Sequence record: PZ445487.1
Length of the DNA stretch: 64,000 bases
Source: a phage
Reading direction: 5' to 3' (one strand)
Shown: positions 7,838 through 59,291 of the stretch, one piece after another
Layout: the number at the start of each line of letters is the position of its first letter
Position numbering within the stretch: the stretch's first letter is position 1
The notes under the pieces: generated by a model
The model's database searches: none
What the model was told of the DNA's origin: nothing
What the model saw: only the letters and a program-made list of their open reading frames with translations
Position numbers and translations under genes: made by a program

Positions 7838-8797
7838 ATGTCCTATATTCTTCATATCGAGTCCGGCCTGAAATTTGAAATTGATGGTAAAACCGCTGCT
7901 GAACTTCAAGCAGAAATTAAAGGTGCAGACCTTATCATTGGCAATGTAACATTACGCCGCATGATGGAAGGCGTCCTTCAGTCAGCCAATGGCTTTGAAC
8001 TCATCGAAGGTCTGAGCCAGGAAGAGAAAGAAGAGACTCTCGAAGCTCTTGACCGCGCTGAAGCCGAAAAAGTTAAACCGACCGAAGATGCGGGGGTTAA
8101 ACAGGGCGACGGTGAATCAAATCCGGTGATTGACGCCGAAGAAACGGTTGGGCAACCTGTCGGTGATCAAAATTCCCAGACCGTCGAAGACGGTTCTCTT
8201 GAAGTCAACAAAGACGGTTCCATTTCCCTGGTAGTTGAAGGCGAAGAAGTTCTTGACGAAGAAGCGCAAGCCCGTGCTGAAGAAGTTCGCCGTCGTATGC
8301 TGGGCACAACCGTTGCTGAAGCAATCGCCGACGTTGAAAATCCGAAGGATGATCAGGCTTTAGCGAACGCGAAGGCGGTTCTGGCCAAGAAATCTTCTGA
8401 AATGCGCCCTGCATCTTCTACCGAAGAACGCAAGCGTCGTCATAACAAGCGTGAAGAAATGGTTGAAGCGGCTCGCGCATCCAATTATGGTCCGATCCTT
8501 GCTGCGGTTGAATCGGGGGTTGTGCCTGGGGTTTATTTGAGCTATGTGAATCCGGATATGCGCTGGTTCCAGTTCCCTGTTACCGAATTGGCAGATGAAG
8601 CCAATCCACACGCCCGCACCAATACTTATGTTGATCTGGCGCCGATCGTTTCCGGCGGCTGGGGGTTCAGTCTGTATGTGAATGGTAAATCATTCACCAA
8701 ACGCCAGAAAATCAAAGAAACTGATGCCGAATCTCTGGTGAAAGCAATCAATGAATGGTTACCACAGGCGTTGGCCGAAGCGAAAGCTGCTGCGTAA
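7838..8797 (+). CDS. hypothetical acidic protein
   Basis: 319-aa ORF with acidic low-complexity centre. Confidence 0.5.
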   Translation: MSYILHIESGLKFEIDGKTAAELQAEIKGADLIIGNVTLRRMMEGVLQSANGFELIEGLSQEEKEETLEALDRAEAEKVKPTEDAGVKQGDGESNPVIDAEETVGQPVGDQNSQTVEDGSLEVNKDGSISLVVEGEEVLDEEAQARAEEVRRRMLGTTVAEAIADVENPKDDQALANAKAVLAKKSSEMRPASSTEERKRRHNKREEMVEAARASNYGPILAAVESGVVPGVYLSYVNPDMRWFQFPVTELADEANPHARTNTYVDLAPIVSGGWGFSLYVNGKSFTKRQKIKETDAESLVKAINEWLPQALAEAKAAA

Positions 8798-8869: not shown

Positions 8870-9532
8870 ATGTCTTATTCGCTCAAAGGGCTGTTGAAGC
8901 GCCCTGTGCATTTGTTTGTCAAACCACCTGCTGTAGAAAGGGAATATTCGGCACGAGGAGAGTTGTATTACATTAAAGGCTCCAATGGTAGTGGTAAGTC
9001 TACTGTGCCTTCTTATTTGGCGGAGAATGATCCTCAGGCGTATGTCGTAACCCACAACAGTAAGATCATGCTCACGGTTTGTCCATCTTATAATATTGTC
9101 TGTGTCGGTAAATATGACAAGTCTAAGTCCAAAGGGGTTGATTCTCTGAAGGATACTGAGCAGATGTTGTTCGCGTTGTCTATTGCTGACCAACCAGAAT
9201 ACCTGAAATATGATGTGATTTTCGAAGGCATCATTCCGTCTACATTATTGAGTTCTTGGATTCCCCGCCTGACACGCCCACCACGTGAATTGGTCGTCCT
9301 CTTTATGGATACCCCTCTTGAAACCTGTATTGCCCGTGTTAAATCGCGTAACGGTGGCGCAGACTTCAATGAAAGTCTGGTGGTCGAGAAGTGGGAGAGA
9401 GTTCATGATCACCGTCAACGGCATAAAGGCTTGTTCCCTACCGTTCCCGCAGGTATGATGAAGTCCGATGGCCTGACTGTAGAGCAGGCTGTTTTTGCGT
9501 TTCTCAATCGTGATTTTGGGAGTATTTATTGA
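8870..9532 (+). CDS. P-loop NTPase/kinase-like protein
   Basis: Walker A GSNGSGKST; start at ATG with GGAG RBS (aa5 of track ORF, whose first codon is TTG). Confidence 0.5.
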   Translation: MSYSLKGLLKRPVHLFVKPPAVEREYSARGELYYIKGSNGSGKSTVPSYLAENDPQAYVVTHNSKIMLTVCPSYNIVCVGKYDKSKSKGVDSLKDTEQMLFALSIADQPEYLKYDVIFEGIIPSTLLSSWIPRLTRPPRELVVLFMDTPLETCIARVKSRNGGADFNESLVVEKWERVHDHRQRHKGLFPTVPAGMMKSDGLTVEQAVFAFLNRDFGSIY

Positions 9533-10578
9533 TGGAAATCAAAGCAATTAACAACAACGACATGCTGAAACAGGCTGTCTTGGCTATCCGTGAGCACGGG
9601 ATTGAATCTGACCCTGGTAACGCGGAGATCAACACAGACGGCACTCGTTTTATTGATGGCGTGACGATCACCGTCTCTGACATCCGCGACCGTTGGCTGT
9701 CTGTTGAAGGACGCAACTCATCGGCTATTGCTGCCATCGGCGAGACCTTCTGGGTTCTGTCTGGGCGCGATGATGTGCGCTTCTTGTCCCGTGTCCTCCC
9801 TCGCGCCGCCAACTTCTCTGATAATGGCCATACATGGCGAGCCGCTTATGGTCCGCGTCTGTACGCCCATGGCCAGCTGGATAGCGTTATCAACCGCCTA
9901 CGCAAGAACCCAAATACTCGTCAAGCGTACCTCACCATCTATGATCCGGCTCTAGATTCGGATGCTGGTCTGGCGAAGTTCAGCGAGAGCGGCGAAGCAA
10001 AGACTAAGGACATGGTGTGTAACCTGGCTCTGTTGTTCGCCATCGTTGAAGGTCGTCTGAACCTGACGGTCATCAACCGCTCACAGGATGTTCTGTGGGG
10101 GATGAGTTCAATCAACTTCATTGAGTTCTCTATTCTTCAGGAAGTGATTGCTCAGGTGTTAGATGTTGATGTCGGTCAGTACAAGCTATTCTCTAACAAT
10201 CTTCATTACTACAACAATGAAGTCAGCCAGAAGCAGCTTGGCAAGATCACCAAAGACACAAAAGTCACTGGTGGTTTCATCAACTCCATGATCTACTTCA
10301 CGAACGTGACCAACCAGAACCATATCCGCAATCTGTTCACTGGTGTGCTTCATCACTGTGATATCGGCAGCCCGTGGGAAACTGTTGTCGCTCACCTGAA
10401 GGAGTACGGCGCGGATCGCGGCCTGATCGTGCAGATGGCGTACTGCCTGTACTGCAAACTGAACGACAAGCTCATCAACATGAACCTGATTCAGGATCAT
10501 GGTTTGAACATCGCGCTCGCCCATTCTCCGATTGACCGCAAGATCGTTGATCCCAAGTTCTTGGAAGGTGCAGTATGA
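9532..10578 (+). CDS. thymidylate synthase superfamily protein (candidate pyrimidine hydroxymethylase)
   Basis: MVCNLALLFAIVEGRLNLTVINRSQDVLWGMSSINFIEFSILQEVIA aligns to TS catalytic-Cys..QRS.D..LG.PFNI region; 348 aa, longer than TS or T4 gp42. Confidence 0.6.
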   Translation: MEIKAINNNDMLKQAVLAIREHGIESDPGNAEINTDGTRFIDGVTITVSDIRDRWLSVEGRNSSAIAAIGETFWVLSGRDDVRFLSRVLPRAANFSDNGHTWRAAYGPRLYAHGQLDSVINRLRKNPNTRQAYLTIYDPALDSDAGLAKFSESGEAKTKDMVCNLALLFAIVEGRLNLTVINRSQDVLWGMSSINFIEFSILQEVIAQVLDVDVGQYKLFSNNLHYYNNEVSQKQLGKITKDTKVTGGFINSMIYFTNVTNQNHIRNLFTGVLHHCDIGSPWETVVAHLKEYGADRGLIVQMAYCLYCKLNDKLINMNLIQDHGLNIALAHSPIDRKIVDPKFLEGAV

Positions 10579-28376: not shown

Positions 28377-28439
28377 GTTTGTCTCTCCCAATAAATTAAG
28401 GGGAAGTATACCTTCCCCTTTCTTCAATAACCTAAAATA

Positions 28440-28778: not shown

Positions 28779-29107
28779 AAGATCCCCAAGTCGGTAAGGT
28801 AACGATAAAACAAGATTATAGACAGAAATCCAATTAACGCCCAAGACGACAGGATAGGCTTTCCATTGAGCGTGGTCTTCCCATTGGGTATGTTAGGACT
28901 TCCGGTAATAACGACGGAGTCTGTTTTGGCTCTCAGCGTCATGATAGAACCCATGAGAATGATTGGGCGCACATAATACCCTTCATGATTGCGCTTCACG
29001 ATACATGGTGAAGAAAATCGCAGGAACGGATCACCGCTTTTATAACCAAATAACTCGACCTTTTCAATTTCTTCGGGTACTTTCTGACCAGGAAAGAATA
29101 TTTTCAT
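28775..29107 (-). CDS. hypothetical protein
   Basis: 110-aa ORF. Confidence 0.35.
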
Positions 29108-29682
29108 AATACAATTCCTAAATTTGTGTATAACAACTCAGCCAGGGTTACAGGACGCTTGAATTGTTCCCAACTGCAGTTCAGGTATTCGCGCTCTTCG
29201 CGAATATTTTCGTGAAGATGACCATGGATATTATACGCCCAACGGTCTAATTGATAAGGAACATGTGTTGTCAACACACAGCCAACAGGCGTGTCACGTT
29301 CGTACATAGCGCCGAAGGAGCTAATCCAGCCGTCCAGATACAGAGACAACAACATCTTAAAGCTGTCATGGTTGCCTTGTGCCACCTTGATGATAAAGTT
29401 CGGACGCCAGTCATCGGGAACGGGGCGTCGCTTAAACTCATCAATGTTTCGCTTGGCACCCTCCCGCATCAGGCGAATGAACCCTTCAGCCCCGATGAAG
29501 CATATATCACCAGCCAGTTCAAGAACGTCCCGAGACTTCAACCCCTGAAAGATACTGTCAATGACCGCAGCGTCATGGGCTTCCTGTGTATCAAATCCAC
29601 GCGGTTTAAAGACCTTCTTATGCCCAAGATGAGTGTCACCAAGGTGCTTTACAATTCCCGCCATTATGGTTTCCTCAGCCAT
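29104..29682 (-). CDS. calcineurin-like metallophosphoesterase
   Basis: GDTHLG, GNHD and GHLH metal-binding motifs. Confidence 0.6.
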
Positions 29683-30005
29683 TCTAAAATCGGTACGTTC
29701 ACAAACCCTTTATGCCAACGATGCGGTTTGTGACCTCTATTATGTTCGAGCAAACACGTGTCTGGTGGGACACTGAAGTGGATGCCGTCGATGTCGTAGT
29801 AATGTCCATCAATCAGAGTATACACATGACCTTCAATCTGGCTATAATGGATCTCTGCTTGAGGATACACATGCTTCAGAACCAGAGCAACCTGATAGCA
29901 CTTTCCGTTCTTCCCAACATACTCAACATCCACCTGTTGTGGGAAGACGTCTTTGATAAGATTTATCAATCTCGTGATGTCATTTACAACAACCGAACAT
30001 TTCAT
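29664..30005 (-). CDS. hypothetical protein
   Basis: 113-aa ORF. Confidence 0.4.
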
Positions 30006-30007: not shown

Positions 30008-30670
30008 CTATGATAACTCATGGCGATGTCGAACACAGGCAGGGCAATCACAATTCTTTTTCAAAATTGGCAATTCACACCATGTCATTAAGTCATGTAT
30101 TGGGGACATGTGATGATAGAACCAAGATTTCTTGAGACTAATCAATGGATATAAAATTTCAATAGATCTTTCCCCGTCTCTGGTCATCATGTTGTATCCT
30201 TCAATAACTTTATTAAAGGCGGGTATCCAGTGTATTGCGTCATCGCCGTTAACATATGCCAAGATATACGTGGGTGGCAAGCCACTGCCTTTAAATTGCG
30301 TGTTTAATAACCATATCGGGGCTTGTGCTAAACAAGCGCGAAAACCACCGTTCGGGACGTTGATGCTACTGATAGGTTCTTGATGATGTGTCCAACGATA
30401 CATGAGAAGTGGGGCATTTTTATTAATCCAGTTGTATATTTTATTCCTCGCCCAATTTTCGCGTTTAGATTTAAATTTATTATTTTCGAGGTGGCAATAC
30501 ACAGTATGAACTGAATATCCTTTCGATAGCAACCAAATCAACATGTATGTGCTATCCACCCCACCAGACCAGAACAACGTCACTTCTTGATTATTCTGCG
30601 GCAATGGAGCATCCCCTTGAAGAACACGGTATACAAAATCACAATCAGATATTGAGACAACAATTTCCAT
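30008..30670 (-). CDS. QueC-like PP-loop ATPase
   Basis: PP-loop LFWSGGVDS (SGGxDS); C-terminal CDCPACVRH cysteine cluster as in the QueC zinc site; 220 aa. Confidence 0.55.
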   Translation of the reverse strand: MEIVVSISDCDFVYRVLQGDAPLPQNNQEVTLFWSGGVDSTYMLIWLLSKGYSVHTVYCHLENNKFKSKRENWARNKIYNWINKNAPLLMYRWTHHQEPISSINVPNGGFRACLAQAPIWLLNTQFKGSGLPPTYILAYVNGDDAIHWIPAFNKVIEGYNMMTRDGERSIEILYPLISLKKSWFYHHMSPIHDLMTWCELPILKKNCDCPACVRHRHELS

Positions 30671-30966
30671 TAAAATATTCCTCTTAAAGAATCATTTATC
30701 CTGCGCAATTCGTTTTCCACTTTTATCTTCATATTTTTATCGTCGTTCACGAAAATCATTTTATCTAAATCTTCGCCATTAATCTTTGTATAAAAATAAA
30801 TGTCATGCTCAAAGAAAATCGTTTTTCCAACAGAACGCATGGCAAAGAACGTTGCGATAGTTCTTGGTAAAGGTTTGAATTTAATGGCATTGAAACGCAA
30901 AGCCTGATAGAGAGGTTTTAATGTTCCTAAGCGAATACAATGCTGGATAATTTCTTGCTCTTTCAT
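30670..30966 (-). CDS. hypothetical protein
   Basis: 98-aa ORF; extended -10 (TGTATAAT) upstream in minus orientation. Confidence 0.4.
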   Translation of the reverse strand: MKEQEIIQHCIRLGTLKPLYQALRFNAIKFKPLPRTIATFFAMRSVGKTIFFEHDIYFYTKINGEDLDKMIFVNDDKNMKIKVENELRRINDSLRGIF

Positions 30967-31023
30967 TTGTTGTGTGCCATAAAGATATGATGGTACAATG
31001 ATAATACATTATACAAATAGAAA

Positions 31024-31040
31024 AGCCCCTTTCGGGGCTT
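31024..31040 (-). terminator. rho-independent terminator (GCCCC-GAAA-GGGGC)
   Basis: hairpin immediately after stop of 31039-31329 gene, followed by T-run in minus orientation. Confidence 0.55.
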
Positions 31041-32039: not shown

Positions 32040-32376
32040 CAGTTTCCCCTGCTTTCTCTAAAAGGAGTTTCAAAGGATATGTCCCACAAGCGGTGGCATA
32101 CTCGACTTTGAAATATGAATTATCGTTCATGGCGAAATTTCGATGTGGGAAATATTCCCCGTCATCCAACCCGCCTAATCCCCCGCCGACGCGATATTGT
32201 TTCAACTCAACTTCGCCGCCATAACGGAGTTGGGCATATAGGCCGATAGGAGCGCGAACGTAATGCTCCAGCCATACCCAATTTCCGTCGTGTAAACGTG
32301 TAGGGATAAATGCAAAACGCACCTTGGGATGAAGAACGGCTTTGGCGAGCATCTCTTCTGTTATTTCACGCTTCAT
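32032..32376 (-). CDS. hypothetical protein
   Basis: 114-aa ORF. Confidence 0.4.
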   Translation of the reverse strand: MKREITEEMLAKAVLHPKVRFAFIPTRLHDGNWVWLEHYVRAPIGLYAQLRYGGEVELKQYRVGGGLGGLDDGEYFPHRNFAMNDNSYFKVEYATACGTYPLKLLLEKAGETDV

Positions 32377-32993
32377 CCAATACCTTCCTCTTCGATGATA
32401 TCTTCTTCACTAGCGACGACAGAGATTCCGTAGTCCACCATCTGGGAAAGTTCTTGTAAATCTTGTTCAAACCCGTCACCCTGTCGGATATAAAAGACGG
32501 GTACGACACGACGCCTGGTATCTTCGAAGATAGTCTCCGCGATTTTATTAATCTGACTCACTACATGAAACAGTTTCAAACCACCGATGCCACAGCCGAT
32601 GGCGGGTAAACCAACATAGACTGTTTCGTCAGTTTTTGCCTCAATGATATCGTGAACTTGTTCAAACATAATCTGAACTGAACTGATAATGGAAGGCATG
32701 CGTGCGTTAGGACCAGGGTAGAACTGAGTATACAAATTGAATCCCCAGACACCAGTGTCATGATCAAACGCATAGGACATGTTCCCCAAACGTTGTTCCG
32801 GACCACGTTCATCTAATTGGTCGGCTCGGTAAATTTCTGGGAAATCTAATCGAACATGGTTGGCGATACCTGCGCCCATCACAGACCAACAATTTGCTCC
32901 ATGAGCGAAAGCATTGATGAGATTAAAACTCGTAGCGGCTTTCAGTAAATCGCCGTTTGTGATAACATATGTGGTCATGCGTAACGTCTCCAT
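32373..32993 (-). CDS. macro-domain protein (ADP-ribose binding/processing)
   Basis: YVITNGDLL...INAFAHGANCWSVMGAGIA matches macro-domain N-terminal signature; GLPAIGCGIGG second glycine-rich motif. Confidence 0.55.
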   Translation of the reverse strand: METLRMTTYVITNGDLLKAATSFNLINAFAHGANCWSVMGAGIANHVRLDFPEIYRADQLDERGPEQRLGNMSYAFDHDTGVWGFNLYTQFYPGPNARMPSIISSVQIMFEQVHDIIEAKTDETVYVGLPAIGCGIGGLKLFHVVSQINKIAETIFEDTRRRVVPVFYIRQGDGFEQDLQELSQMVDYGISVVASEEDIIEEEGIG

Positions 32994-46301: not shown

Positions 46302-46408
46302 AGTATAGAATTCCTGTTCAGATCAAAGAAGAACACATTATTGGGTAAGGTTATGATACTGGCGGGTGGTTCAATAGAAAAGCCTCCAATCGGAGGCTTT
46401 AATCAGGA

Positions 46409-46762
46409 TTAACTTCCCTGAACGTTTACAACGGTGGCGTTGAAATTGAATATCGGGTGGGTGGCACCTGGCTCTAACGTCTCTTCCAGATAACCCACAA
46501 TATTGCGTGTCACAGATTTCGGCTCTGCGCGGGAAGGCTTCGTTGCGCCGAGGTCAATAATGCTCGAAGTGACTTGTTCAACCTGAGTGTGATTGACAAC
46601 AAAATGATAACGACTACCGAAGGCCGCAACTTCAACTTCTGTTATTTCTAAACCACTCAATTCAGAGCTGTTCAACTGCTTCACATTCAATTGAGAGCGG
46701 AGGTGCTCTACAATATTGCTGTAAACATATTGTGGTGTGATCAGCTGTTCAATAGAACTCAT
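46409..46762 (-). CDS. hypothetical protein
   Basis: 117-aa ORF. Confidence 0.4.
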   Translation of the reverse strand: MSSIEQLITPQYVYSNIVEHLRSQLNVKQLNSSELSGLEITEVEVAAFGSRYHFVVNHTQVEQVTSSIIDLGATKPSRAEPKSVTRNIVGYLEETLEPGATHPIFNFNATVVNVQGS

Positions 46763-46931
46763 GACATATCCTCATTTCTTTGGGGGTTTATTGTTACTTA
46801 AACGGATCACCTCTGCTCGAAGGAAGAGGATTTCATCGGCCATCATTTTACCTTCTTGAAACATAACATGACATCGTGATGATCTGGGTTCACCTTCCGA
46901 TAATGCGTAAAGGCGATATTCGGGGATGACA

Positions 46932-47138
46932 TCATTTACGGCGTTTCTTTTTGTTCTTTCCATGGGTCTTGGCCTTTTTAGGACGACTGACGGAAGGACG
47001 AGCATGCCCAGGTTCCCCAGGGGTACACCCTTGTGCATAACGATGATCATCCCAGAGACGACCATTATGCGTCATATCTTCAGCCATGGCGGACAAAGCA
47101 AGGGTTGCTACAGCCGCAGCAGATAATGGTTTAGACAT
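46932..47138 (-). CDS. small secreted-like protein with polybasic C-terminus
   Basis: AAAGGAGAAACAA RBS before ATG (MSKPLSAAAVATLALSAMA signal-like N-terminus; tail KKAKTHGKNKKKRRK). Confidence 0.45.
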   Translation of the reverse strand: MSKPLSAAAVATLALSAMAEDMTHNGRLWDDHRYAQGCTPGEPGHARPSVSRPKKAKTHGKNKKKRRK

Positions 47139-47577
47139 TTGTTTCTCCTTTTGCTGCATACGACAGAGCTTTTACGATCATAACAGCCAAACCGATAGGA
47201 TCGTATGCATTGTCGAATTCTTGTTCTATGTTCTGACGAATTTCATCAGAAGATTGTACTTCAGAGCAGTTCTTACTCTGTCTGCGTTGCTCTTGCTCGA
47301 CTAGATCTTTGAACAGAAGGTCTTTGAAAGAATACTCATCGAAGTTTTCAAGATACCGTTGGATGCTTGGTTGTTTTACATCCATCGTTTGACGCAAATT
47401 GCTAATAGTTGAACTTGCCTGTTCGCGGTGTTTGTTCATAACAGCAAAGTTAACGGGCTTGCCCCAAGCATTCATCACTGGATTAGAGCATACTTGGCCA
47501 AAGAGATCTTGGAAGGCATCATCCATGTGGATCAACGCAGTGGCCAATTCCTCATAAGTCGGTTTTTGAGTAGTCAT
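47131..47577 (-). CDS. hypothetical protein
   Basis: 148-aa ORF. Confidence 0.4.
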   Translation of the reverse strand: MTTQKPTYEELATALIHMDDAFQDLFGQVCSNPVMNAWGKPVNFAVMNKHREQASSTISNLRQTMDVKQPSIQRYLENFDEYSFKDLLFKDLVEQEQRRQSKNCSEVQSSDEIRQNIEQEFDNAYDPIGLAVMIVKALSYAAKGETNV

Positions 47578-47951
47578 TTTCGTTTACTCCGATTTTTATA
47601 TTTCTTAGCCTGACGTTTATGTTGGGCGGCTCCATATAGGCGCGGCGGCTTTTGATAACGTTGTGACGCAATTATGTCTCTGTCATCGGCTTCACAATAC
47701 GAAATATCTGCCTTCCGTAACTGAGCCACCGCTTGAGATACCAAGGTTTTGCGTTCACTTTCTACCAGATCATCACAAATTATCATGCGTTCACCTGGTT
47801 CACAACAACGTTTAGGAATATCGTCTACACTGATACATTCTACTTCAACACCTTTCAACTTTTCTTGAAGGATAATGGCCATAGTCCGAGCGCCGATTCC
47901 TCCTCCAATAATCGCTATCTTTCTTGTCTTGTCTGTCATGTTCTTGCCCAT
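47574..47951 (-). CDS. hypothetical protein with Rossmann-like GGGIG motif
   Basis: KIAIIGGGIGA dinucleotide-binding-like motif; track start 47969 is TTG inside a hairpin, ATG at 47951 or 47939 more likely. Confidence 0.4.
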   Translation of the reverse strand: MGKNMTDKTRKIAIIGGGIGARTMAIILQEKLKGVEVECISVDDIPKRCCEPGERMIICDDLVESERKTLVSQAVAQLRKADISYCEADDRDIIASQRYQKPPRLYGAAQHKRQAKKYKNRSKRK

Positions 47952-47956
47952 GAAAA

Positions 47957-47994
47957 GGGGATAGAGCAATAATACCCTATCCCCATTTATTGAA
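47957..47994 (-). promoter_or_regulatory. composite terminator/promoter element (TTCAAT N14 TATTAT in hairpin loop, T-run)
   Basis: minus orientation TTCTTCAATAAATGGGGATAGGGTATTATTGCTCTATCCCCTTTTC; approximate. Confidence 0.5.
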
Positions 47995-48000
47995 GAACTA

Positions 48001-48492
48001 TTAGTCTTCCGAACCTACAACCCCACCACGCAGATCCTGTGCTGGCTTACCATCAGGTGCCATGACATAGATGGTATTGATAGTCTCAAACCAAGACAAT
48101 AAATCAACTCCTTCGGTGTATGGCGTTACCGGAACAGAAGTTTTGATTTCTTTCTGTTCATCCTTCAAATCCGGATGACTTCCCGATAGGGTTAACCAAG
48201 CGAATCTTCCATTGGGATAAATAATGCCTTCTTTGAACATTACAATCTTTTTGCGAGGATTATTGGCTTCACCCAGGCACACCACCAGATGATGGATCAT
48301 TTCGGGGCGCGTCAACAACGTGTCATCTTTGATAATGCCCTGCTTGACAGCAGAGATTACCACTTCATCCAGCAACGCCTGTTGCTGTTCCAGCGTCAGA
48401 GATTCGGTTAGTTTCACGCTCATAAGATCAGCCTTTGAAGTTAATCGGAGTCTGGACACCAGAGTCAAATGCGGCCTGGGTGCGGGTGTCAC
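48001..48492 (-). CDS. hypothetical protein
   Basis: 163-aa ORF. Confidence 0.4.
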   Translation of the reverse strand: MTPAPRPHLTLVSRLRLTSKADLMSVKLTESLTLEQQQALLDEVVISAVKQGIIKDDTLLTRPEMIHHLVVCLGEANNPRKKIVMFKEGIIYPNGRFAWLTLSGSHPDLKDEQKEIKTSVPVTPYTEGVDLLSWFETINTIYVMAPDGKPAQDLRGGVVGSED

Positions 48493-48997
48493 TCACCACC
48501 TGACATGTCTTGTCAAGATCGATACGCGGATATCCAAAGATTCCTGCTATCAGAGAACCAGGGAACTGGCCAAGTTTAGTTTCATAGATCGCACATGCGT
48601 CCAATTTTTTAGTTTGGCTAATGCGGAATTCATCCCGACCTGAGCTGATAACAACCTGAATCTCTTTGTACAAAGATGAATCAAACTGAATATTCTGTTC
48701 CTGAATCCATTGCATTACTGCTTTAGAACCGTCTGCGCCATAACGGCCTTGGAAAGTATCTTTGATCACTTCCTTCAAACCGTTTTTGTACATGTCAGGA
48801 ATCTGCGCCGTCTCCTGAACTTTGAGCGTGTAGTTGCTCAGGTGGTTTTCAGAATCTTTGTTGAACTTTTTGACCTGTTGTTCAATGCGGTTGAAGTCAT
48901 TGAAATAGCTAACCACACTGCCAATCCCAATTACAGCAAATGCTAGAATCGCCAACCCAACAATCCAACCAATTGAAATACCTTTACGTTGTGACAT
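48428..48997 (-). CDS. LemA-family membrane protein
   Basis: N-terminal TM helix; C-terminal LGQFPGSLIAGIFGYP matches LemA VxKFPGxLIA motif. Confidence 0.5.
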   Translation of the reverse strand: MSQRKGISIGWIVGLAILAFAVIGIGSVVSYFNDFNRIEQQVKKFNKDSENHLSNYTLKVQETAQIPDMYKNGLKEVIKDTFQGRYGADGSKAVMQWIQEQNIQFDSSLYKEIQVVISSGRDEFRISQTKKLDACAIYETKLGQFPGSLIAGIFGYPRIDLDKTCQVVSDTRTQAAFDSGVQTPINFKG

Positions 48998-49012
48998 CTT
49001 TACTTCCTCTTG

Positions 49013-50122
49013 TTAAAACAAACGTTTATAAGTTCGACCATTGTACTGCATGCGGCCTAATATGAAAACTGCGGTAAAAGGGATACATCCAAACAGCACG
49101 ACGATAATCACTTCCCAAGTTTTAAGATCTCGCCATTTCAGATATTCCATTTCCTTCATCTCAACTCGGTTGTATCCCTTACTGATATTGACCGCAACTT
49201 CTTGGAACACGGATATGCCCATTGGTTTCCCAGTCAATGAAAGTCCGTTACGAGAATGGAGTTCCATGTTGTTCATGCCGTCGGCAAATGACGTAGACTT
49301 ACCCCAATTAATTTTCATATCCTTTGAAATATCGGTGACTACAATAACATCGTTCTTTTTACCGCCAGACCATGCATATAGAAGTCCCTGAAAATATTCA
49401 ACAGGCTGGCCAGAAGTCACAACCCAAACGATATTAACCTGACGTGAAGCACCTAATGTTTTCAGAGTATTGTTCAGATAATCATTCCAGTAATCAACAG
49501 GAATGTCCATCCCTGACATATTCAGAACACGAGTTACTCGGTAATAATCATACACCCTCGGATATGAAGGGATATGCTCTTTGAACTTCTCGGCGAATTT
49601 CTGGTCAGATTTAGAGAATAATGAATCTTTGTTGCCCAGCACATAATTCATATATGAATGTTCACGTGCCGCAGGTTCCCCGATTTTAACTTGTGCCCAA
49701 CGCGGAGGCTCTGTAGTACCCTGACGATCAATACGGTCAATGCTCAGATCACCGACGGTTGTTAATACGTCCCAATCAACGTCATAAGAGTGCTCATAGC
49801 ATGTGCTGCAATGACGCGTTTGTGTACAAGATCGGTTATTTCCTGAACCTGTACAAGATGTTGTGTAATAACACATACATTCATAAGAATGTTCACAACC
49901 CACCTTATTCCGTTGCTTATCAGTTACATATCCATTCAGGATTTCCACGTCCCCAGAACTACCAAGGGAGAAAGCAGCATATAATCCCGACTGGATAAGG
50001 CAAGACAATACGATAACAATGGCCGTGGCGATCAAAGTCTCCTTTGGCTCATGAGTCTTGCGGTGATATATCACAAACAAGATGGCCAAAATTACAGGAA
50101 CCACAAACAGAAGGTAAATCAT
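49013..50122 (-). CDS. Cys-rich membrane protein (TM helices at both ends)
   Basis: 369 aa; N- and C-terminal hydrophobic helices; cysteine-rich segment CEHSYECMCYYTTSCTGSGNNRSCTQTRHCSTC. Confidence 0.5.
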   Translation of the reverse strand: MIYLLFVVPVILAILFVIYHRKTHEPKETLIATAIVIVLSCLIQSGLYAAFSLGSSGDVEILNGYVTDKQRNKVGCEHSYECMCYYTTSCTGSGNNRSCTQTRHCSTCYEHSYDVDWDVLTTVGDLSIDRIDRQGTTEPPRWAQVKIGEPAAREHSYMNYVLGNKDSLFSKSDQKFAEKFKEHIPSYPRVYDYYRVTRVLNMSGMDIPVDYWNDYLNNTLKTLGASRQVNIVWVVTSGQPVEYFQGLLYAWSGGKKNDVIVVTDISKDMKINWGKSTSFADGMNNMELHSRNGLSLTGKPMGISVFQEVAVNISKGYNRVEMKEMEYLKWRDLKTWEVIIVVLFGCIPFTAVFILGRMQYNGRTYKRLF

Positions 50123-50505
50123 AACACACCATCCACGAGTTGTTCCTTCGTCATACCAAGAAGTTGATTTTTATGCTCAGATTTAGCCCCATTTTTCAAC
50201 AACAGATCCCAACGTTCTTCATGATACTGTGGAGTCATTGCATCGTCAAAAGAAACATGGTGGAGATGCATAATTGTTGCAACGGTATGAAGAACGATTG
50301 CTGTTTCTCTTTTTAAAGCACGTGTATCCGTGATATGGTCTTCATATTCGATTCCCATCAAATCGAGTTCTTTTCGGATATATGCTATAGACAAATCACC
50401 TTCAGAATGCAATTTAACAATAGTCGCTTTCTTAGGATGTAACACGCCGTCTGTTTCTTTCATGAACAGATCGTACAGGTACTGTTTGTATTCGGACTGT
50501 GTCAT
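50119..50505 (-). CDS. hypothetical protein
   Basis: 128-aa ORF. Confidence 0.4.
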   Translation of the reverse strand: MTQSEYKQYLYDLFMKETDGVLHPKKATIVKLHSEGDLSIAYIRKELDLMGIEYEDHITDTRALKRETAIVLHTVATIMHLHHVSFDDAMTPQYHEERWDLLLKNGAKSEHKNQLLGMTKEQLVDGVL

Positions 50506-50714
50506 TTAGATTCTCCCATGACGATAACAGGAGCGCCATTACGGAAACAACTATATTCTGCAGGAAGACCTTCGCGAACCTTCTGGGCGAACGCTTCAGA
50601 AACAACCAAACGACCAACCAGAGGTTCTTTTTGTTTTGGGGTGGACTCAAAGTAATCACCAAAAGTCGCTTCCATATCGAGCACAGACATGTCTTCAATT
50701 CGTTGCATTGCCAT
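50502..50714 (-). CDS. hypothetical protein
   Basis: 70-aa ORF. Confidence 0.3.
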   Translation of the reverse strand: MAMQRIEDMSVLDMEATFGDYFESTPKQKEPLVGRLVVSEAFAQKVREGLPAEYSCFRNGAPVIVMGESK

Positions 50715-50725
50715 GATATAGGACC

Positions 50726-50917
50726 TCAGTATAATTTCGTATAAACTTGTTTAACGCCAATATCGGCAGGAGCTGTGCTCTGCTGCATATTATAGAATGC
50801 CAAATCTGCTTGTTCTTTGTTTTCAAAATCAACTACAACTGTGTGTACTGATATTGCTTCACCCTGTCCATAAGCATAACAACGGCTGGTGACCAATATT
50901 TTGTATTGAGGTGTCAT
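50726..50917 (-). CDS. hypothetical protein
   Basis: 63-aa ORF with AAGGA RBS. Confidence 0.4.
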   Translation of the reverse strand: MTPQYKILVTSRCYAYGQGEAISVHTVVVDFENKEQADLAFYNMQQSTAPADIGVKQVYTKLY

Positions 50918-50941
50918 AAAATCAATCCTTGCAAAAAGAAA

Positions 50942-50980
50942 GGGGAACGGGCTAATAATAACCCATTCCCCTTTATTGAA
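50942..50980 (-). promoter_or_regulatory. composite terminator/promoter element (TTCAAT N14 TATTAT in hairpin loop, T-run)
   Basis: minus orientation TTCTTCAATAAAGGGGAATGGGTTATTATTAGCCCGTTCCCCTTTCTTT; approximate. Confidence 0.5.
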
Positions 50981-51000
50981 GAACGCAATCGCAATCAGAT

Positions 51001-51167
51001 TACTTTTTCTTCAGCTCGTCCAGTTTGGCTTCGATTTGTTCCAGGATGTCTTTACCCTTCTGAACAATCACTTCACCGTCTTGCGCGTGTTTGCGAAAGA
51101 CCAGAGCGCCAGCGATGAAGCCGACAACCACACCAGGAAGCGCATAAACCAACAGATCTTGTAACAT
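51001..51167 (-). CDS. small membrane protein (55 aa, below ORF-track cutoff)
   Basis: MLQDLLVYALPGVVVGFIAGALVFRKHAQDGEVIVQKGKDILEQIEAKLDELKKK; GAGGA RBS; coordinates +/-2. Confidence 0.35.
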
Positions 51168-51202
51168 GATAATATCCTCACTTTATAGCGAGGATATTTA
51201 TA

Positions 51203-52444
51203 TCAGCGTTTCAAGAGTGTCATGAGGTTCACACTTTTAGAAGGATACACAGTACCATTTCGGCTCATGGTGTCCAATTTACCAACTGACAAACAAACCT
51301 CAGACGGTTCCCAACGTGTACCCTGCTGTAAATGCCAGATATGTAGAGGAACACCCGTCTCAAAGAACACGGGCATCTTCCACTTCTGGACGCCTGGAAC
51401 GTGCCCTGCAGGAGCCTTCTCACATAACAGGGTATCTGGTAGCCAGAGTGAACGGGCTTCCCAGAGAGGTGCACAGGAGTATTCAGGCCAAATACGTTCC
51501 ATATAATCGATCTCGTCCCATGTACGCTCGGCGTCCCACCCGATGTAACGGGTATTCTTCAGTCGGAAGAATTTCTTCAACCAACAAGCACCGGAGGTCT
51601 CAAAGTTCAGACGATTGATAAACGTGATGTGGCCAAACTCTTCAACGCATTCCTGAAACGCTTTCTCAAGGTCGGTTTCGAGTATATCACATTCTTCGTC
51701 TGTAATAGGACAACCGTTAATCTTTTTCTTCCCGTGCTTGGTCACCCAATCATCACGGTTGGATAAGAATGCCGCGCCGTTACGATTGGATTCGCTACCA
51801 TCACGGTCACGCAACATGAAACCAGGGACGTCTATATCCCATATGTTACCGAAGACCATGTTCAGGGCTTCCAGGAAGTTCCATGCGCTCAGGCGACCGA
51901 AGTATTTCCATGACATCGCCGTATTCCACAGTTCGGTGAATTGGTCTTCCTTGGTAGTGCATTCCAACATCCAACGAAAAGAATCCATTTGGGTTTTACC
52001 ACCCAACCAATCGATATAGGACTGAACGCACGGAATCATCTTCGACTTACGATAACGACAATCTGTATCGAAGCGCATACGATCAAAGTTCAGGTTATAC
52101 CAATCAGAAAATCGCTGAAACTCTTTCGGAGATTGTGGGGGTACAGGAAATTCACTGTAAATTGTCCATGGTCCAATCCCATTATAGCAACAACCCCACA
52201 AAAAGGCCATCCAAATCTTGCGCTCGATCTTCTCGAGCTGTGTGATGCCTTCTGTAACCTCGATGGCATAATCCATCAGACGGACTTGCTGGTTATGCTC
52301 TTCAGTGTAGGATAGCGCCTCCACCCATGCCTTGAGCAGGTACATGCGATTTTCTGGCTTACGATAATCTACTGCCAGATCAATCGGGTATTTCCATTTT
52401 TCAGGGGCTTTATATCCCTGCGGCATTTTAGAAATGTGTATCAT
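51203..52444 (-). CDS. hypothetical protein (candidate DNA base-modification enzyme by context)
   Basis: 413-aa Trp/Cys-rich protein with no recognised family, directly upstream of P-loop kinase and nucleotidase genes. Confidence 0.5.
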   Translation of the reverse strand: MIHISKMPQGYKAPEKWKYPIDLAVDYRKPENRMYLLKAWVEALSYTEEHNQQVRLMDYAIEVTEGITQLEKIERKIWMAFLWGCCYNGIGPWTIYSEFPVPPQSPKEFQRFSDWYNLNFDRMRFDTDCRYRKSKMIPCVQSYIDWLGGKTQMDSFRWMLECTTKEDQFTELWNTAMSWKYFGRLSAWNFLEALNMVFGNIWDIDVPGFMLRDRDGSESNRNGAAFLSNRDDWVTKHGKKKINGCPITDEECDILETDLEKAFQECVEEFGHITFINRLNFETSGACWLKKFFRLKNTRYIGWDAERTWDEIDYMERIWPEYSCAPLWEARSLWLPDTLLCEKAPAGHVPGVQKWKMPVFFETGVPLHIWHLQQGTRWEPSEVCLSVGKLDTMSRNGTVYPSKSVNLMTLLKR

Positions 52445-52626
52445 CCGATTTTACTCCCGAGTTCAACACGGAACGCCAGATAGAAGAAAGTGGCGATCGA
52501 TACTGGACAGATCACCAAGAATGGGCGCTGTTGCACCCCTTCTGTGACCATGACGCCGACCAGCGAAACCGTAAAGATAACGAACATCAGCATCATGAAG
52601 ATAAAATCAACATGCTTGATTTTCAT
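52441..52626 (-). CDS. small membrane protein
   Basis: 61-aa hydrophobic ORF. Confidence 0.3.
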   Translation of the reverse strand: MKIKHVDFIFMMLMFVIFTVSLVGVMVTEGVQQRPFLVICPVSIATFFYLAFRVELGSKIG

Positions 52627-52993
52627 CTTTCACTTCCTCTACAGGAGAAACAACTTCAGGCTCAGCTTCGGGAGCCAGCTGAATTTCTTCGGGGCTTACT
52701 ACGGGCTGTCCCAGAGACCAGATAGGCAGGAAACGACGATCATTCGTCACCAACCAAATTTGCTTGGCGGTTTTCGTCTTTTCGGAAATAAAATGCTGGG
52801 CATTGACCTGGGTACGAGCCAAACCCACCTGACGCCAAGAACCGAAATCCTTAGAAGAAGGATTGGTATTCAGTTGAAATTGTGGGACGATTTTATTCTG
52901 TTCCGGATAATAACGGACAGCGTTAATCATCTTCGCATCACCACGGTAATCAATAGCAACAGCGACAACGTTGCGTGGAATGAGGATTTTCAT
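52607..52993 (-). CDS. hypothetical protein
   Basis: 128-aa ORF. Confidence 0.4.
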   Translation of the reverse strand: MKILIPRNVVAVAIDYRGDAKMINAVRYYPEQNKIVPQFQLNTNPSSKDFGSWRQVGLARTQVNAQHFISEKTKTAKQIWLVTNDRRFLPIWSLGQPVVSPEEIQLAPEAEPEVVSPVEEVKDENQAC

Positions 52994-52994
52994 T

Positions 52995-53198
52995 TTAATT
53001 CCTTTTGAAACTCTGAATTATGTTATAGACGAAAGGCGTTAATAAGATAGCACCCCCCAAATAATATAACGCGTAAACGTTCAATATTTCGGTTGAATCC
53101 AACTCAACGATGCCCAAATATTTCATGACACCGACAAGCACAGCTGTGATACACATCACCAATCCGACGAACACAAAATATTTAGACATCTGTTTCAT
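52995..53198 (-). CDS. small membrane protein (2 TM)
   Basis: 67-aa hydrophobic ORF. Confidence 0.35.
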   Translation of the reverse strand: MKQMSKYFVFVGLVMCITAVLVGVMKYLGIVELDSTEILNVYALYYLGGAILLTPFVYNIIQSFKRN

Positions 53199-53200
53199 TT

Positions 53201-54106: not shown

Positions 54107-54447
54107 TATGCATCTTCCTCAATACGCCAGCTCACACCGCCCAACCAGGGAGACCAGAAAACAGCAACCTGTGGACGTTCGTTTTCTACAAACTTCACTT
54201 TATACTGGTCTTCAAAGTTATAGAAAATTTCATCGTCATCTGGTGCCATACCGTTTTCTATCAGAACACGCTTTAACTCCAGCGCCGCACCAACGGAAGT
54301 GGGTGTGGTTTGTTTACGAATGAAGTTGTTCACATGGATAATAACGCCATCCATATCGCTATCACCGGAACGCTTGTCTGGGGTTTCCCCAAACTTAGAT
54401 TGTTCTTGCACGATGTCCTCCTCAACGGACGTATTGATAATGGCCAA
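54106..54447 (-). CDS. hypothetical protein
   Basis: 113-aa ORF. Confidence 0.4.
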   Translation of the reverse strand: MAIINTSVEEDIVQEQSKFGETPDKRSGDSDMDGVIIHVNNFIRKQTTPTSVGAALELKRVLIENGMAPDDDEIFYNFEDQYKVKFVENERPQVAVFWSPWLGGVSWRIEEDA

Positions 54448-55541: not shown

Positions 55542-55601
55542 AACAATACCTGTTGTCAAAGGGATAACAGGGGGAATTATATCCCCCTTTGGTTTATTGA
55601 A

Positions 55602-58598: not shown

Positions 58599-58677
58599 TG
58601 TTTGTCTCCGGTTAACCGTGCCGTTAGCACGTCCCCGTAATTTAGCCGAGGAACGTTCAATGACCAAGGAGTTTATT

Positions 58678-59250: not shown

Positions 59251-59253
59251 GTT

Positions 59254-59280
59254 AGAGGGGAGGAAACTCCCCTTTCTTTT
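59254..59280 (+). terminator. putative rho-independent terminator
   Basis: GAGGGGAGGAAACTCCCCTTTCTTTT; approximate. Confidence 0.5.
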
Positions 59281-59291
59281 GGTGTTAAGGA

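What the first reader, a model, noticed from the sequence alone, without database searches (positions are those of the whole stretch)
30008..30670. Lone QueC-like PP-loop ATPase
SGGxDS PP-loop plus a C-terminal CxCxxC zinc cluster match QueC (7-cyano-7-deazaguanine synthase), but no QueD/QueE/FolE or DpdA-like transglycosylase is recognisable in this window. Either the phage makes 7-deazaguanine DNA modifications with partners encoded elsewhere, or a QueC scaffold has been recruited for different ATP-dependent amidation or nitrile chemistry.
Basis: partly seen in the sequence, partly recalled or inferred. Interest (0 to 1): 0.6.

Follow-up and report, generated by a model that had tools for sequence, protein, structure and literature searches.

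The report
Phage-only Cap9/QueC-like PP-loop enzyme
The gene is real and encodes an ATP-using enzyme of the QueC/Cap9 type, but it is not a queuosine-precursor synthase: it belongs to a large, almost phage-only branch of that family whose substrate is still unknown.

Summary
The window is Escherichia phage CBA120 (Kuttervirus).

It is not a canonical QueC:
- Curated QueC models match only the PP-loop.
- The essential QueC motifs VPxRN and YPDC are absent from it and from all 149 relatives examined.
- No FolE, QueD, QueE or DpdA gene is found anywhere in the genome.
- Published LC-MS of CBA120 DNA shows the four canonical nucleosides plus 5-NeOmdU only.

It belongs to a large family (at least 478 cluster representatives at E<=1e-10). 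Only one full-length copy turned up in 185,579 prokaryotic species genomes. The family sits mostly in replication, recombination, nucleotide-metabolism and DNA-modification neighbourhoods of large virulent phages. It is variably present within Ackermannviridae and does not track the thymidine-hypermodification genes.

The closest known proteins are Cap9 (type IV CBASS) and QueC. The ATP site, a conserved Glu, Lys, a base-reading Asp and the zinc site are kept; the residues that stack on deazaguanine are lost.

It most likely adenylates a carboxylated heteroaromatic substrate and couples it to an amine. The substrate is unknown. Hutinet et al. 2019 had already flagged this lone phage QueC as a probable non-QueC.

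The parts
30008..30670 (-). orf028 / CBA120_gp024 (YP_004957727.1), 220 aa: phage-type Cap9/QueC-like PP-loop ATP pyrophosphatase
30551..30568 (-). PP-loop SGGVDS (residues 35-40), the pyrophosphate-binding site for ATP
   Evidence: Sequence. G37, D39 and S40 are invariant, and W34, S35, G36 and T41 are at least 90% conserved, in 61 distant relatives. The motif aligns to Cap9 S18/D22/S23, whose mutation abolishes function
30458..30484 (-). N63-N64 ... E71 block: the family's counterpart of QueC YxQxHxxE and Cap9 FxQ(x)5E, with a 2-residue insertion
   Evidence: Alignments to Cap9. E71 is invariant and N63/N64 are at least 90% conserved
30323..30325 (-). Q116, at the position of Cap9 R86 and the Arg of QueC's VPxRN motif (the arginine that stacks on deazaguanine; R99 is essential in QueC)
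   Evidence: Alignments; roles of the residues; VPxRN is present in 0 of 149 family representatives
30236..30256 (-). Y139-V-N-G-D143-D144-A145 block. D143 aligns with Cap9 D117, which reads the N1/N2 edge of deazaguanine. The stacking Tyr (Cap9 Y115) falls in a 4-residue deletion
   Evidence: hmmsearch and hhalign alignments; Y139 and D143 invariant in the family; residue roles
30128..30148 (-). P175-L176-x4-K181, counterpart of Cap9 PF(x)4K and QueC K165
   Evidence: Alignment; K181 invariant and F174/P175/L176 at least 90% conserved; motif definitions
30035..30079 (-). W197-C198-E199 ... C207-D-C209-P-A-C212: a Cys4 motif, presumed structural zinc site, with the 'CE' start shared with Cap9
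   Evidence: Sequence; C198, C209 and C212 invariant, C207 and E199 at least 90% conserved; aligned to the zinc motifs of QueC and Cap9
30670..30966 (-). orf027, 98 aa, unknown function, translationally coupled upstream gene (TAATG overlap)
   Evidence: phrog_9302 of unknown function. Found only in Kuttervirus-like loci, so not an obligate partner
29664..30005 (-). orf031, 113 aa, Phage YunG-like protein, starting 3 nt after the QueC-like stop codon
   Evidence: PF24591 at E 7.8e-44. Found only in Kuttervirus-like loci
29104..29682 (-). orf033, metallophosphoesterase. Found within about 1 kb downstream in all 14 sampled Ackermannviridae loci (adjacent in the Taipeivirus-type loci L016 and L017), but also occurs without the QueC-like gene
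   Evidence: phrog_547 phosphoesterase at E 1.4e-42; neighbourhood; distribution: Klebsiella 34 records against 7 for the QueC-like gene, plus T5-like phages
31023..31040 (.). GC-rich hairpin AAGCCCCGAAAGGGGCTT, a terminator-like site read on both strands, at the upstream boundary of the orf027-orf035 gene block
28398..28420 (-). Terminator-like hairpin at the downstream boundary of the same block

Best explanation
orf028 encodes an active PP-loop ATP pyrophosphatase of the QueC/Cap9 clade. It belongs to a distinct family found almost only in phages.

Shown: it has the fold, the ATP/pyrophosphate loop, the Cys4 (zinc) motif and four further positions shared with Cap9/QueC (E71, D143, P175-L176-x4-K181, C198-E199). 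It lacks the residues that canonical QueC needs.

Inferred: like its two nearest relatives, it binds ATP and adenylates a carboxyl group on a planar heteroaromatic (nucleobase-like) acid, releasing PPi. The acyl group then passes to a nitrogen nucleophile to form an amide. This makes it a ligase or amidotransferase, not a nitrile (preQ0) synthase.

The substrate is not identified. Host-made 7-carboxy-7-deazaguanine (CDG) cannot be excluded, because the Asp that reads the guanine-like edge is kept. However, both residues that stack on the base are replaced or deleted, which points to a different or differently held substrate.

The biological setting is inferred from gene neighbourhoods in many unrelated phages: DNA replication, recombination, nucleotide metabolism and DNA modification. 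In Ackermannviridae the gene is accessory. It is not part of the 5-NeOmdU thymidine pathway or of any 7-deazaguanine pathway.
For: Real, conserved gene.

Fold and nearest relatives:
- AF2 mean pLDDT 83.6.
- Foldseek best hit is Cap9.
- The family profile matches QueC (E 1.3e-8) and Cap9 (E 3.2e-8) over the full length. Other PP-loop families match only the PP-loop region, at E 2.7e-4 or worse.
- hhalign against Cap9: probability 97.8%, E 1e-12, 160 columns.

Conserved catalytic positions: with residue roles taken.

Not QueC:
- TIGR00364 scores 17.8 against a cut-off of 150.3.
- The Pfam QueC match covers only residues 33-64.
- VPxRN and YPDC occur in 0 of 149 family members.
- No partner genes.
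- LC-MS of CBA120 DNA (PMC5889632).

Phage-restricted large family:
- 1155 representatives at E<=1e-3 and 478 at E<=1e-10.
- One full-length copy in 185,579 species genomes, and that copy lies between IS elements.

Gene context:
- About 32 contigs share the order SNF2 helicase, 120-aa protein, this gene, PolB, with a NUDIX gene two genes further on. In other lineages it lies next to RecA, DnaB, FEN, dCMP deaminase, TAGT or ParB_N genes.

Not the thymidine pathway:
- ADDT is present in 19 Dickeya, 45 Klebsiella and 62 Vibrio phage records. The QueC-like gene is present in at most 2, 7 and 3 of those groups (Dickeya is not among the listed genera).
- The gene is present in PhiPA3-like and RSL2-like phage groups in which the ADDT search found no match or almost none.
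Against: No biochemical data exist for any family member.

The two substrate-stacking residues of Cap9/QueC are not conserved (R86 becomes Q116; Y115 is deleted), so carrying the substrate class over from those enzymes is an extrapolation.

Gene neighbourhoods differ between lineages, and in 20 of 30 lineages no SNF2 gene lies within 10 kb. In CBA120 the neighbours are all of unknown function.

The gene has been lost from Limestonevirus without loss of viability, so it is not a core replication function.
Confidence: 0.45

Rival explanations
1. It is a true QueC (preQ0 synthase) that feeds a 7-deazaguanine DNA or tRNA modification, using host or distantly encoded partners.
For: The Pfam QueC model scores just above its gathering threshold (23.5 against 22). 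RefSeq and PHROG name it 'QueC-like'. A QueC-type Cys4 motif is present. The host makes CDG.
Against: - The Pfam match is the PP-loop only, and the TIGR00364 equivalog model scores 17.8 against 150.3.
- The essential Arg of VPxRN is Gln, and the YPDC and YxQxH motifs are absent. VPxRN and YPDC are found in 0 of 149 relatives.
- There is no dpdA/tgt, folE, queD or queE in the genome.
- CBA120 DNA shows only 5-NeOmdU as an extra nucleoside.
- Hutinet et al. 2019 excluded these singleton QueCs from the QueC cluster.
- The host already has QueC, so a second copy would add nothing.
Confidence: 0.03
2. It is an accessory enzyme of the thymidine hypermodification pathway (5-hmdU to 5-NeOmdU), for example acting on the carboxylate of an O-serinyl intermediate.
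For: The phage and this window encode the pathway: HMUD2 kinase, ADDT and a thymidylate-synthase-like enzyme. Pathway intermediates carry carboxylates. In one unrelated phage contig (L074) the gene lies next to two TET-associated glycosyltransferase genes.
Against: - Every protein reported as responsible for 5-NeOmdU is accounted for without a PP-loop enzyme: hydroxymethyltransferase, kinase, two pyrophosphotransferases and a PLP decarboxylase.
- The phyletic patterns disagree. Dickeya and most Klebsiella and Vibrio Ackermannviridae have ADDT but not this gene. PhiPA3-like and RSL2-like phages have this gene, but ADDT was not found, or hardly found, in those groups.
- The gene lies more than 20 kb from the modification cluster in the window.
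Confidence: 0.07
3. It activates a base carbonyl rather than a carboxylate, as ThiI, MnmA, TilS, GMP synthase or YcfA do. It would then thiolate or aminate a nucleotide, a tRNA or a DNA base.
For: - Pfam ThiI scores marginally above threshold (20.9 against 20.5), and the MnmA and TilS models give weak hits.
- dCMP or dCTP deaminase genes lie nearby in several lineages.
- The phage encodes four tRNAs.
Against: - Those matches cover only the PP-loop region. Only QueC and Cap9 align over the full length, including the C-terminal zinc motif.
- There is no THUMP or other RNA-binding domain and no fusion domains.
- No conserved catalytic cysteine or Fe-S cysteine triad lies outside the C-terminal Cys4.
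Confidence: 0.2
4. It is a counter-defence protein. As a Cap9/QatC look-alike it would either drain or divert host CDG, or interfere with type IV CBASS or QatABCD immunity.
For: - Its closest relative is the defence enzyme Cap9.
- The only PADLOC hit is the model named 'QueC' (E 1.2e-6).
- The gene is accessory within Ackermannviridae and lies among small genes of unknown function.
- The family is restricted to phages.
Against: - In many lineages it sits in a conserved position inside replication modules, which is not typical of anti-defence islands.
- It is not linked to any known anti-defence gene.
- There are no experimental data.
Confidence: 0.12

Closest known systems
Cap9 (QueC-family enzyme of type IV CBASS; PDB 9nto chain B)
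   Same: - Minimal single-domain size.
- Shared SGGxDS loop, the Glu of FxQ(x)5E (E71), the Asp that reads the base edge (D143 = D117), P-[FL]-x4-K (K181), and a Cys4 motif that starts with 'CE'.
   Different: - R86 is Gln here, and the stacking Y115 lies in a 4-residue deletion. Q46 is Asn, with a 2-residue insertion.
- There is no CD-NTase, Cap10 (TGT-like) or Cap11 partner in the genome.
- It is encoded by phages, not by bacterial defence operons.
- No N-terminal-glycine substrate gene lies next to it in CBA120.
[quoted passage not shown]
   Different: - It fails the equivalog model (17.8 bits against 150.3).
- It lacks YxQxH, VPxRN (R99 essential) and YPDC (Y131 essential), and 'CY' in the zinc region is 'CE' here.
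- It is never linked to queD, queE or folE.
- No 7-deazaguanine has been detected in the phage DNA.
QatC (QueC-family protein of the QatABCD defence system)
   Same: Another QueC-family member that keeps the ATP loop but has changed the CDG-recognition residues (Thr-x-Thr replaces Tyr-x-Asp). Its substrate is also unresolved.
   Different: QatC is about 400 aa with N- and C-terminal extensions, has its own motif set, and is encoded with qatA, qatB and qatD. The phage protein has none of these features.
The 'QueC singleton' phage proteins set aside by Hutinet et al. 2019 (SFP10, ECML-4), also PHROG 1550
   Same: This is the same protein family. SFP10 and ECML-4 carry orthologues with 92-97% identity, and the PHROG 1550 match is E 2e-81.
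   Different: That paper only noted that these proteins do not cluster with QueC and are probably another N-type ATP pyrophosphatase subfamily. It did not describe their size, their restriction to phages, their closeness to Cap9 or their gene context.

Membership tests
PP-loop ATP pyrophosphatase (adenine nucleotide alpha hydrolase) superfamily | SGGxDS pyrophosphate-binding loop at the end of the first strand of a Rossmann-like fold | tested here: met
   [not shown]
Canonical QueC (TIGR00364 / PF06508 cluster 1) | Score above the curated equivalog cut-off | tested here: not met
   TIGR00364 scores 17.8 bits against a cut-off of 150.3. Pfam PF06508 scores 23.5 against 22, but the match covers only residues 33-64.
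Canonical QueC (TIGR00364 / PF06508 cluster 1) | C(x)8CxxCxxC zinc motif | tested here: met
   Present in a variant form, C198-x8-C207-x-C209-x2-C212. Most relatives have CGxCxxC.
Canonical QueC (TIGR00364 / PF06508 cluster 1) | YxQxHxxE motif (Y35 essential) | tested here: not met
   The aligned segment is L61-E-N63-N64 ... E71. Only the Glu is kept, and there is a 2-residue insertion.
Canonical QueC (TIGR00364 / PF06508 cluster 1) | VPxRN motif (R99 essential) | tested here: not met
   The Arg position is Q116. VPxRN occurs in 0 of 149 family representatives.
Canonical QueC (TIGR00364 / PF06508 cluster 1) | YPDC motif (aromatic Y131 essential; the Asp reads the N1/N2 edge of CDG) | tested here: not met
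   YPDC occurs in 0 of 149 representatives. An Asp (D143) aligns with the Cap9 and QueC Asp, but the Tyr falls in a 4-residue deletion.
Canonical QueC (TIGR00364 / PF06508 cluster 1) | Genomic linkage with queD, queE or folE, or in phages with dpdA | tested here: not met
   None in the window or the whole genome. None among the most frequent Pfam families in a census of 150 neighbouring genes from 27 lineages (only the top 25 of 81 matched families were shown).
Canonical QueC (TIGR00364 / PF06508 cluster 1) | Converts CDG to preQ0; 7-deazaguanine present in nucleic acid | not testable with these tools
   Literature only: LC-MS of CBA120 DNA shows four canonical nucleosides plus 5-NeOmdU (PMC5889632). 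Minor species were not excluded.
Cap9 (type IV CBASS) | Minimal QueC fold with LxSGGxDS, PF(x)4K and CE(x)6CxxCxxC | tested here: met
   Present as variants: LFWSGGVDS, P175-L-x4-K181 and C198-E-x7-C-x-C-x2-C.
Cap9 (type IV CBASS) | CDG-binding residues R86, Y115 and D117 (the RN and YxDC motifs) | tested here: not met
   R86 aligns with Q116, Y115 is deleted, and only D117 is kept (as D143).
Cap9 (type IV CBASS) | Operon with a CD-NTase and the TGT-like Cap10 | tested here: not met
   No such genes in CBA120 or in the neighbourhood census.
Cap9 (type IV CBASS) | An adjacent substrate protein with an N-terminal glycine | tested here: inconclusive
   Not in CBA120: the neighbours start MKEQ and MKCS. 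In about 24 uncultivated-phage loci the gene immediately upstream encodes a 120-aa protein starting M-[G/A]-x-x-Y-x-W-x-x-N-P-F. It is the only neighbouring gene family there with Gly predominant at position 2.
QatC (QatABCD) | About 400 aa with N- and C-terminal extensions; operon with qatA, qatB and qatD | tested here: not met
   The protein is 220 aa. The only PADLOC hit is the short 'QueC' model. No such neighbours are present.
tRNA thiolases and lysidine synthase (ThiI, MnmA, TtuA, TilS) | RNA-binding domains (THUMP etc.) and a catalytic Cys or Fe-S Cys triad in the core | tested here: not met
   Matches are confined to the PP-loop region. No extra domains. No conserved core cysteine.

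The most novel reading that the evidence does not exclude
The family is a phage-encoded counterpart of Cap9/QatC. It would be an ATP-dependent ligase that takes a host-made carboxylated nucleobase, most simply 7-carboxy-7-deazaguanine, and attaches it to the N-terminal amine of a protein. The target could be a phage protein: in one large uncultivated clade, the conserved upstream 120-aa protein with an M-G/A N-terminus is a candidate. Alternatively the target could be a host immune protein, or the enzyme could drain CDG to disarm QueC-family-dependent defences. Either way, phages would be using 'deazaguanylation' chemistry that is so far known only from bacterial immunity.
Probability: 0.13. 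Interest if true: 0.85.

Novelty: new variant of a known kind. Interest (0 to 1): 0.48.

Why it matters
QueC-family enzymes were recently shown to do more than make queuosine precursors. In bacterial immunity, Cap9 attaches a deazaguanine base to a protein N-terminus, and QatC is proposed to do the same.

This gene represents a large branch of the same family with no biochemical data:
- At least 478 cluster representatives at 50% identity.
- Essentially confined to virulent, mostly large phages, including therapeutic and biocontrol Kuttervirus phages.
- Databases label it 'queuosine biosynthesis', '7-cyano-7-deazaguanine synthase' or even 'argininosuccinate synthase'.

Showing what it adenylates would correct a widespread mis-annotation. 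It could also reveal a new phage nucleotide, DNA or protein modification, or a counter-defence. The practical point for now is that the presence of this gene should not be read as evidence for 7-deazaguanine DNA.

Tried and rejected
Searches that found nothing:
- Pfam and PHROG scans of the flanking genes gave only a YunG-like protein, DUF7618 and a phosphoesterase, with no functional clue.
- jackhmmer showed that orf027 and orf031 are confined to Kuttervirus-like phages, so they are not obligate partners.
- The metallophosphoesterase orf033 is near the gene in the sampled Ackermannviridae loci but occurs widely without it.
- Long family members (300-460 aa) carry no recognisable fused domains.
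- No riboswitch or other Rfam element is present in the window or near the gene, so there is no preQ1 riboswitch.
- A scan of bacterial and archaeal genomes gave one stray copy between IS elements, so no cellular operon is available to learn from.
- A search for the c4-type N-terminal motif in CBA120 found nothing.
- One distant relative sat on an 805-bp contig with no context.

Limits of the tools:
- The BFVD search only returned other unnamed or mis-named phage homologues.
- Model coordinates could not be read, so pocket geometry was inferred from alignments only.

Rejected ideas: canonical QueC, and membership of the 5-NeOmdU pathway (see the rival explanations). A non-catalytic remnant was also rejected, because the PP-loop is conserved across the family: SGGxDS in 133 of 149 relatives and [ST]GGxDS in 143 of 149.
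Full report
**Identity of the window and the gene**

The 3-kb stretch around the finding is 100% identical to Escherichia phage CBA120 (Kuttervirus, Ackermannviridae; NC_016570.1). Window 1-46301 is the reverse of record 46301-1, and window 46302-64000 continues from the other end of the record.

The finding coincides exactly with an ORF on the minus strand, 30008-30670. It is 220 aa and is annotated orf028/gp024, 'QueC-like queuosine biosynthesis' in RefSeq. It has a good Shine-Dalgarno sequence, and its ATG overlaps the stop codon of the upstream orf027. Two terminator-like hairpins, at 31023-31040 and 28398-28420, bracket a six-gene block running from orf027 to orf035.

SGGVDS lies at residues 35-40. 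The cysteines are C198-x8-C207-x-C209-x2-C212.
- The annotation lists none.
- tblastn with the DpdA, FolE, QueD and QueE proteins of phage 9g gives nothing below E 0.3.

**It is not a canonical QueC**

- The Pfam QueC model matches only residues 33-64, the PP-loop, at 23.5 bits. ThiI, MnmA and ArgG models score similarly.
- The NCBIfam QueC equivalog model scores 17.8 bits against a cut-off of 150.3.
- Libby et al. 2026 defined the QueC signature by mutagenesis: SGGxDS, YxQxHxxE, VPxRN, YPDC, K165 and the zinc motif, with Y35, R99, Y131 and Y189 essential.
- Alignment through a family profile shows which positions survive. The PP-loop, the Glu (E71), the Lys (K181) and the Cys4 motif are kept. 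The Arg position is Q116, the Gln position is N63 with a 2-residue insertion, and the Tyr of YPDC falls in a 4-residue deletion.
- Among the 149 best family representatives, VPxRN and YPDC each occur zero times. SGGxDS occurs in 133, the Cys4 motif in 128, and a 'CE' start to that motif in 125.

Published work agrees:
- Hutinet et al. 2019 noted that singleton QueCs of SFP10 and ECML-4, which are orthologues of this gene, do not cluster with QueC and are probably another ATP pyrophosphatase subfamily.
- Lee et al. 2018 analysed CBA120 DNA itself by LC-MS. They found the four canonical nucleosides plus a single 301-Da nucleoside, 5-NeOmdU, replacing about 40% of thymidine.
- The window carries that pathway: the HMUD2 5-hmdU DNA kinase, the ADDT amino acid:DNA transferase and a thymidylate-synthase-like enzyme.

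**What it is**

A word-indexed search found only 19 close relatives. A profile search of 1.84 billion cluster representatives found 1155 at E<=1e-3 and 478 at E<=1e-10, nearly all matching over about 190 residues.

In 61 distant relatives (24-58% identity):
- Invariant positions are G37, D39, S40, E71, Y139, D143, K181, C198, C209 and C212.
- Positions at least 90% conserved are W34, S35, G36, T41, N63, N64, A74, Q116, A145, F174, P175, L176, E199 and C207.

The family profile aligns over the full length only to QueC (E 1.3e-8) and Cap9 (E 3.2e-8). hhalign gives 97.8% probability and E 1e-12 over 160 columns against Cap9, but only a C-terminal 49-column match to B. subtilis QueC. The protein is therefore a homologue of the QueC/Cap9 clade, somewhat nearer to Cap9.

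In the Cap9 structure, the conjugated deazaguanine is held by D117 (N1/N2 edge), Y115 and R86 (stacking). Here D117 corresponds to the invariant D143. R86 is Q116 and Y115 is deleted. QatC offers a precedent for a QueC-family enzyme with a remodelled base pocket and an unresolved substrate.

**Distribution**

- The family is almost absent from cells. A scan of one genome for each of 185,579 prokaryotic species gave a single full-length copy, a lone gene between IS elements.
- Among 50,697 phage records, the CBA120 protein itself finds 200, almost all Ackermannviridae: Salmonella, Escherichia, Serratia, Shigella, Yersinia, Enterobacter, and some Klebsiella and Vibrio phages. Divergent family members used as queries add PhiPA3-like Pseudomonas jumbo phages, RSL2/RSF1-like Ralstonia phages, and Burkholderia and Erwinia phages, for about 230 records.
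- Within Ackermannviridae it is accessory. ADDT is present in 19 Dickeya, 45 Klebsiella and 62 Vibrio phage records. The QueC-like gene is present in at most 2, 7 and 3 of those groups (Dickeya is not among the listed genera).
- A Dickeya phage keeps only the last 24 codons of the gene two positions downstream (orf033), which suggests a deletion of this part of the block.
- This also separates the gene from the thymidine-hypermodification pathway.

**Gene context**

I fetched 80 IMG/VR loci and clustered their ORFs.
- About 32 contigs of an uncultivated phage group share the order: 137-aa protein, SNF2 helicase, 120-aa protein, QueC-like, family-B DNA polymerase, unknown, NUDIX protein.
- The QueC-like proteins fall into 30 lineages at 45% identity. 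In 10 of them an SNF2 helicase lies within 10 kb, in varying order. The same holds on an independent Logan contig.
- CBA120 has a homologous SNF2 helicase (orf124) elsewhere in its genome.
- A Pfam census of 150 neighbouring genes from 27 lineages gave: RecA, helicase C-terminal domain, SMC/Rad50 and GT1 glycosyltransferases in 3 genes each; FEN, DnaB, SNF2, dCMP deaminase, NUDIX, ParB_N and TET-associated glycosyltransferase in 2 each; and single DNA methylases, Mom and thymidylate synthase. The TET-associated glycosyltransferase and ParB_N counts each come from a paralogue pair in a single locus.
- In CBA120 the neighbours are DexA, a Tk.4-like protein, dCMP deaminase, a metallophosphoesterase and small proteins of unknown function.
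- The context therefore points to DNA and nucleotide metabolism broadly, without a fixed partner.

**A lead for the protein-ligase reading**

In the uncultivated group, the 120-aa protein encoded immediately upstream has a conserved N-terminus, M-[G/A]-x-x-Y-x-W-x-x-N-P-F-[R/Q]-D. Glycine or alanine is at position 2 in 21 of 22 distinct sequences. It is the only neighbouring gene family there with Gly predominant at that position. Cap9 and QatC both act on the N-terminal glycine of an adjacent gene product.

The lead is weak. The small protein has no homologue outside that group, and the CBA120 neighbours begin MKEQ and MKCS. I treat it as a lead only.

**Mechanism**

Shown by sequence and model: an intact ATP/pyrophosphate loop, a Cys4 site and a QueC/Cap9-type core.

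Inferred from the chemistry of the two nearest families: adenylation of a carboxyl group on a planar heteroaromatic acid, followed by amide formation with an amine. The substrate and the acceptor are unknown. I put this at about 0.45. The main alternatives are:
- Carbonyl activation on a nucleotide or tRNA: 0.2.
- A counter-defence role as a Cap9/QatC look-alike: 0.12. This concerns the biological role and overlaps with the mechanism above.
- A role in thymidine hypermodification: 0.07.
- A true QueC: 0.03.

**Novelty**

The lone QueC-like gene of ViI-like phages has been noticed before, and databases name it 'QueC-like'. New here are:
- The residue-by-residue test against the 2026 QueC signature.
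- The closeness to Cap9.
- The size of the family and its restriction to phages.
- Its accessory status within Ackermannviridae.
- Its recurrent placement in replication, recombination and DNA-modification neighbourhoods.

It is a new variant of a known kind of enzyme, with unknown function. Interest is moderate. It would rise sharply if the enzyme proves to carry out nucleobase-protein conjugation or a new nucleic-acid modification.

Noticed in passing
window 46301/46302: The window is circularly permuted relative to the GenBank record. Window 1-46301 is record 46301-1 reversed, and window 46302-64000 continues at record 157304 down to 139607. The ends of the 'linear' record are therefore joined inside the window.
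   Followed up: yes
window 53201-54106 (-), 51203-52444 (-), 54422-55204 (-), 9532-10578 (+): Genes of the thymidine hypermodification (5-NeOmdU) pathway lie in the same window: HMUD2 5-hmdU DNA kinase (E 1.8e-149), ADDT amino acid:DNA transferase (E 1.9e-57), an NT5C-like nucleotidase and a thymidylate-synthase-like enzyme (probably the dUMP hydroxymethylase).
   Followed up: partly
window 31023-31040 and 28398-28420: A GC-rich hairpin (AAGCCCCGAAAGGGGCTT) scores as a terminator on both strands. A second terminator-like hairpin lies downstream. Together they bracket a six-gene block: orf027, QueC-like, YunG-like, phosphoesterase, DUF7618, orf035.
   Followed up: partly
window 32373-32993 (-): The orf021 'Tk.4' protein contains a macrodomain-like stretch (AHGANCWSVMGAGIA). 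Pfam gives no hit, and PHROG 335 calls it a 'phosphatase'. It may be an ADP-ribose-binding or ADP-ribose-hydrolysing protein.
   Followed up: no
Dickeya phage RC-2014, NC_025452.1 143437-143508: This Limestonevirus keeps only the last 24 codons of the phosphoesterase orf033 (95.8% identity) and has no QueC-like gene. This suggests a deletion that removed the QueC-like gene and most of orf033 in that genus.
   Followed up: partly
L031-L083 (about 24 IMG/VR loci), e.g. L069 9636-9998: A 120-aa protein always encoded immediately upstream of the QueC-like gene has a conserved N-terminus, M-[G/A]-x-x-Y-x-W-x-x-N-P-F-[R/Q]-D. This resembles the N-terminal-glycine substrates of Cap9 and QatC. No Pfam or PHROG family matches it.
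   Followed up: partly
L074 8329-13216: In a T4-like contig the gene order is UvsW-like helicase, QueC-like gene, TET-associated glycosyltransferase, small ORF, second TET-associated glycosyltransferase. This places a family member next to a DNA hypermodification cluster.
   Followed up: partly
L080 7163-7879, 7876-8499, 11639-12346; L064 3067-3408 and 3590-3868: One contig (L080) carries three divergent PP-loop paralogues, two adjacent and the third about 3 kb downstream. Another (L064) has the QueC-like gene split into two ORFs separated by about 180 nt, which could be a frameshift, an intervening element or an assembly error.
   Followed up: no
OR844942.1 'Enterococcus phage Efm 3-10' (111 kb); KY000003.1 Salmonella phage STP07: An unannotated record labelled as an Enterococcus phage matches Kuttervirus: a megablast hit to the region around the gene and 94% amino-acid identity for ADDT. 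It is probably mislabelled or contaminated. STP07 annotates the QueC-like gene as 'argininosuccinate synthase', and several other records call it '7-cyano-7-deazaguanine synthase'.
   Followed up: no
L091 (OW818669.1 2799344-2815901), gene at 7896-8582: This is the only full-length family member found in 185,579 prokaryotic species genomes. It is a lone gene flanked by IS-element transposase genes in a 4.2-Mb metagenome-assembled chromosome, with no phage genes within 8 kb.
   Followed up: partly
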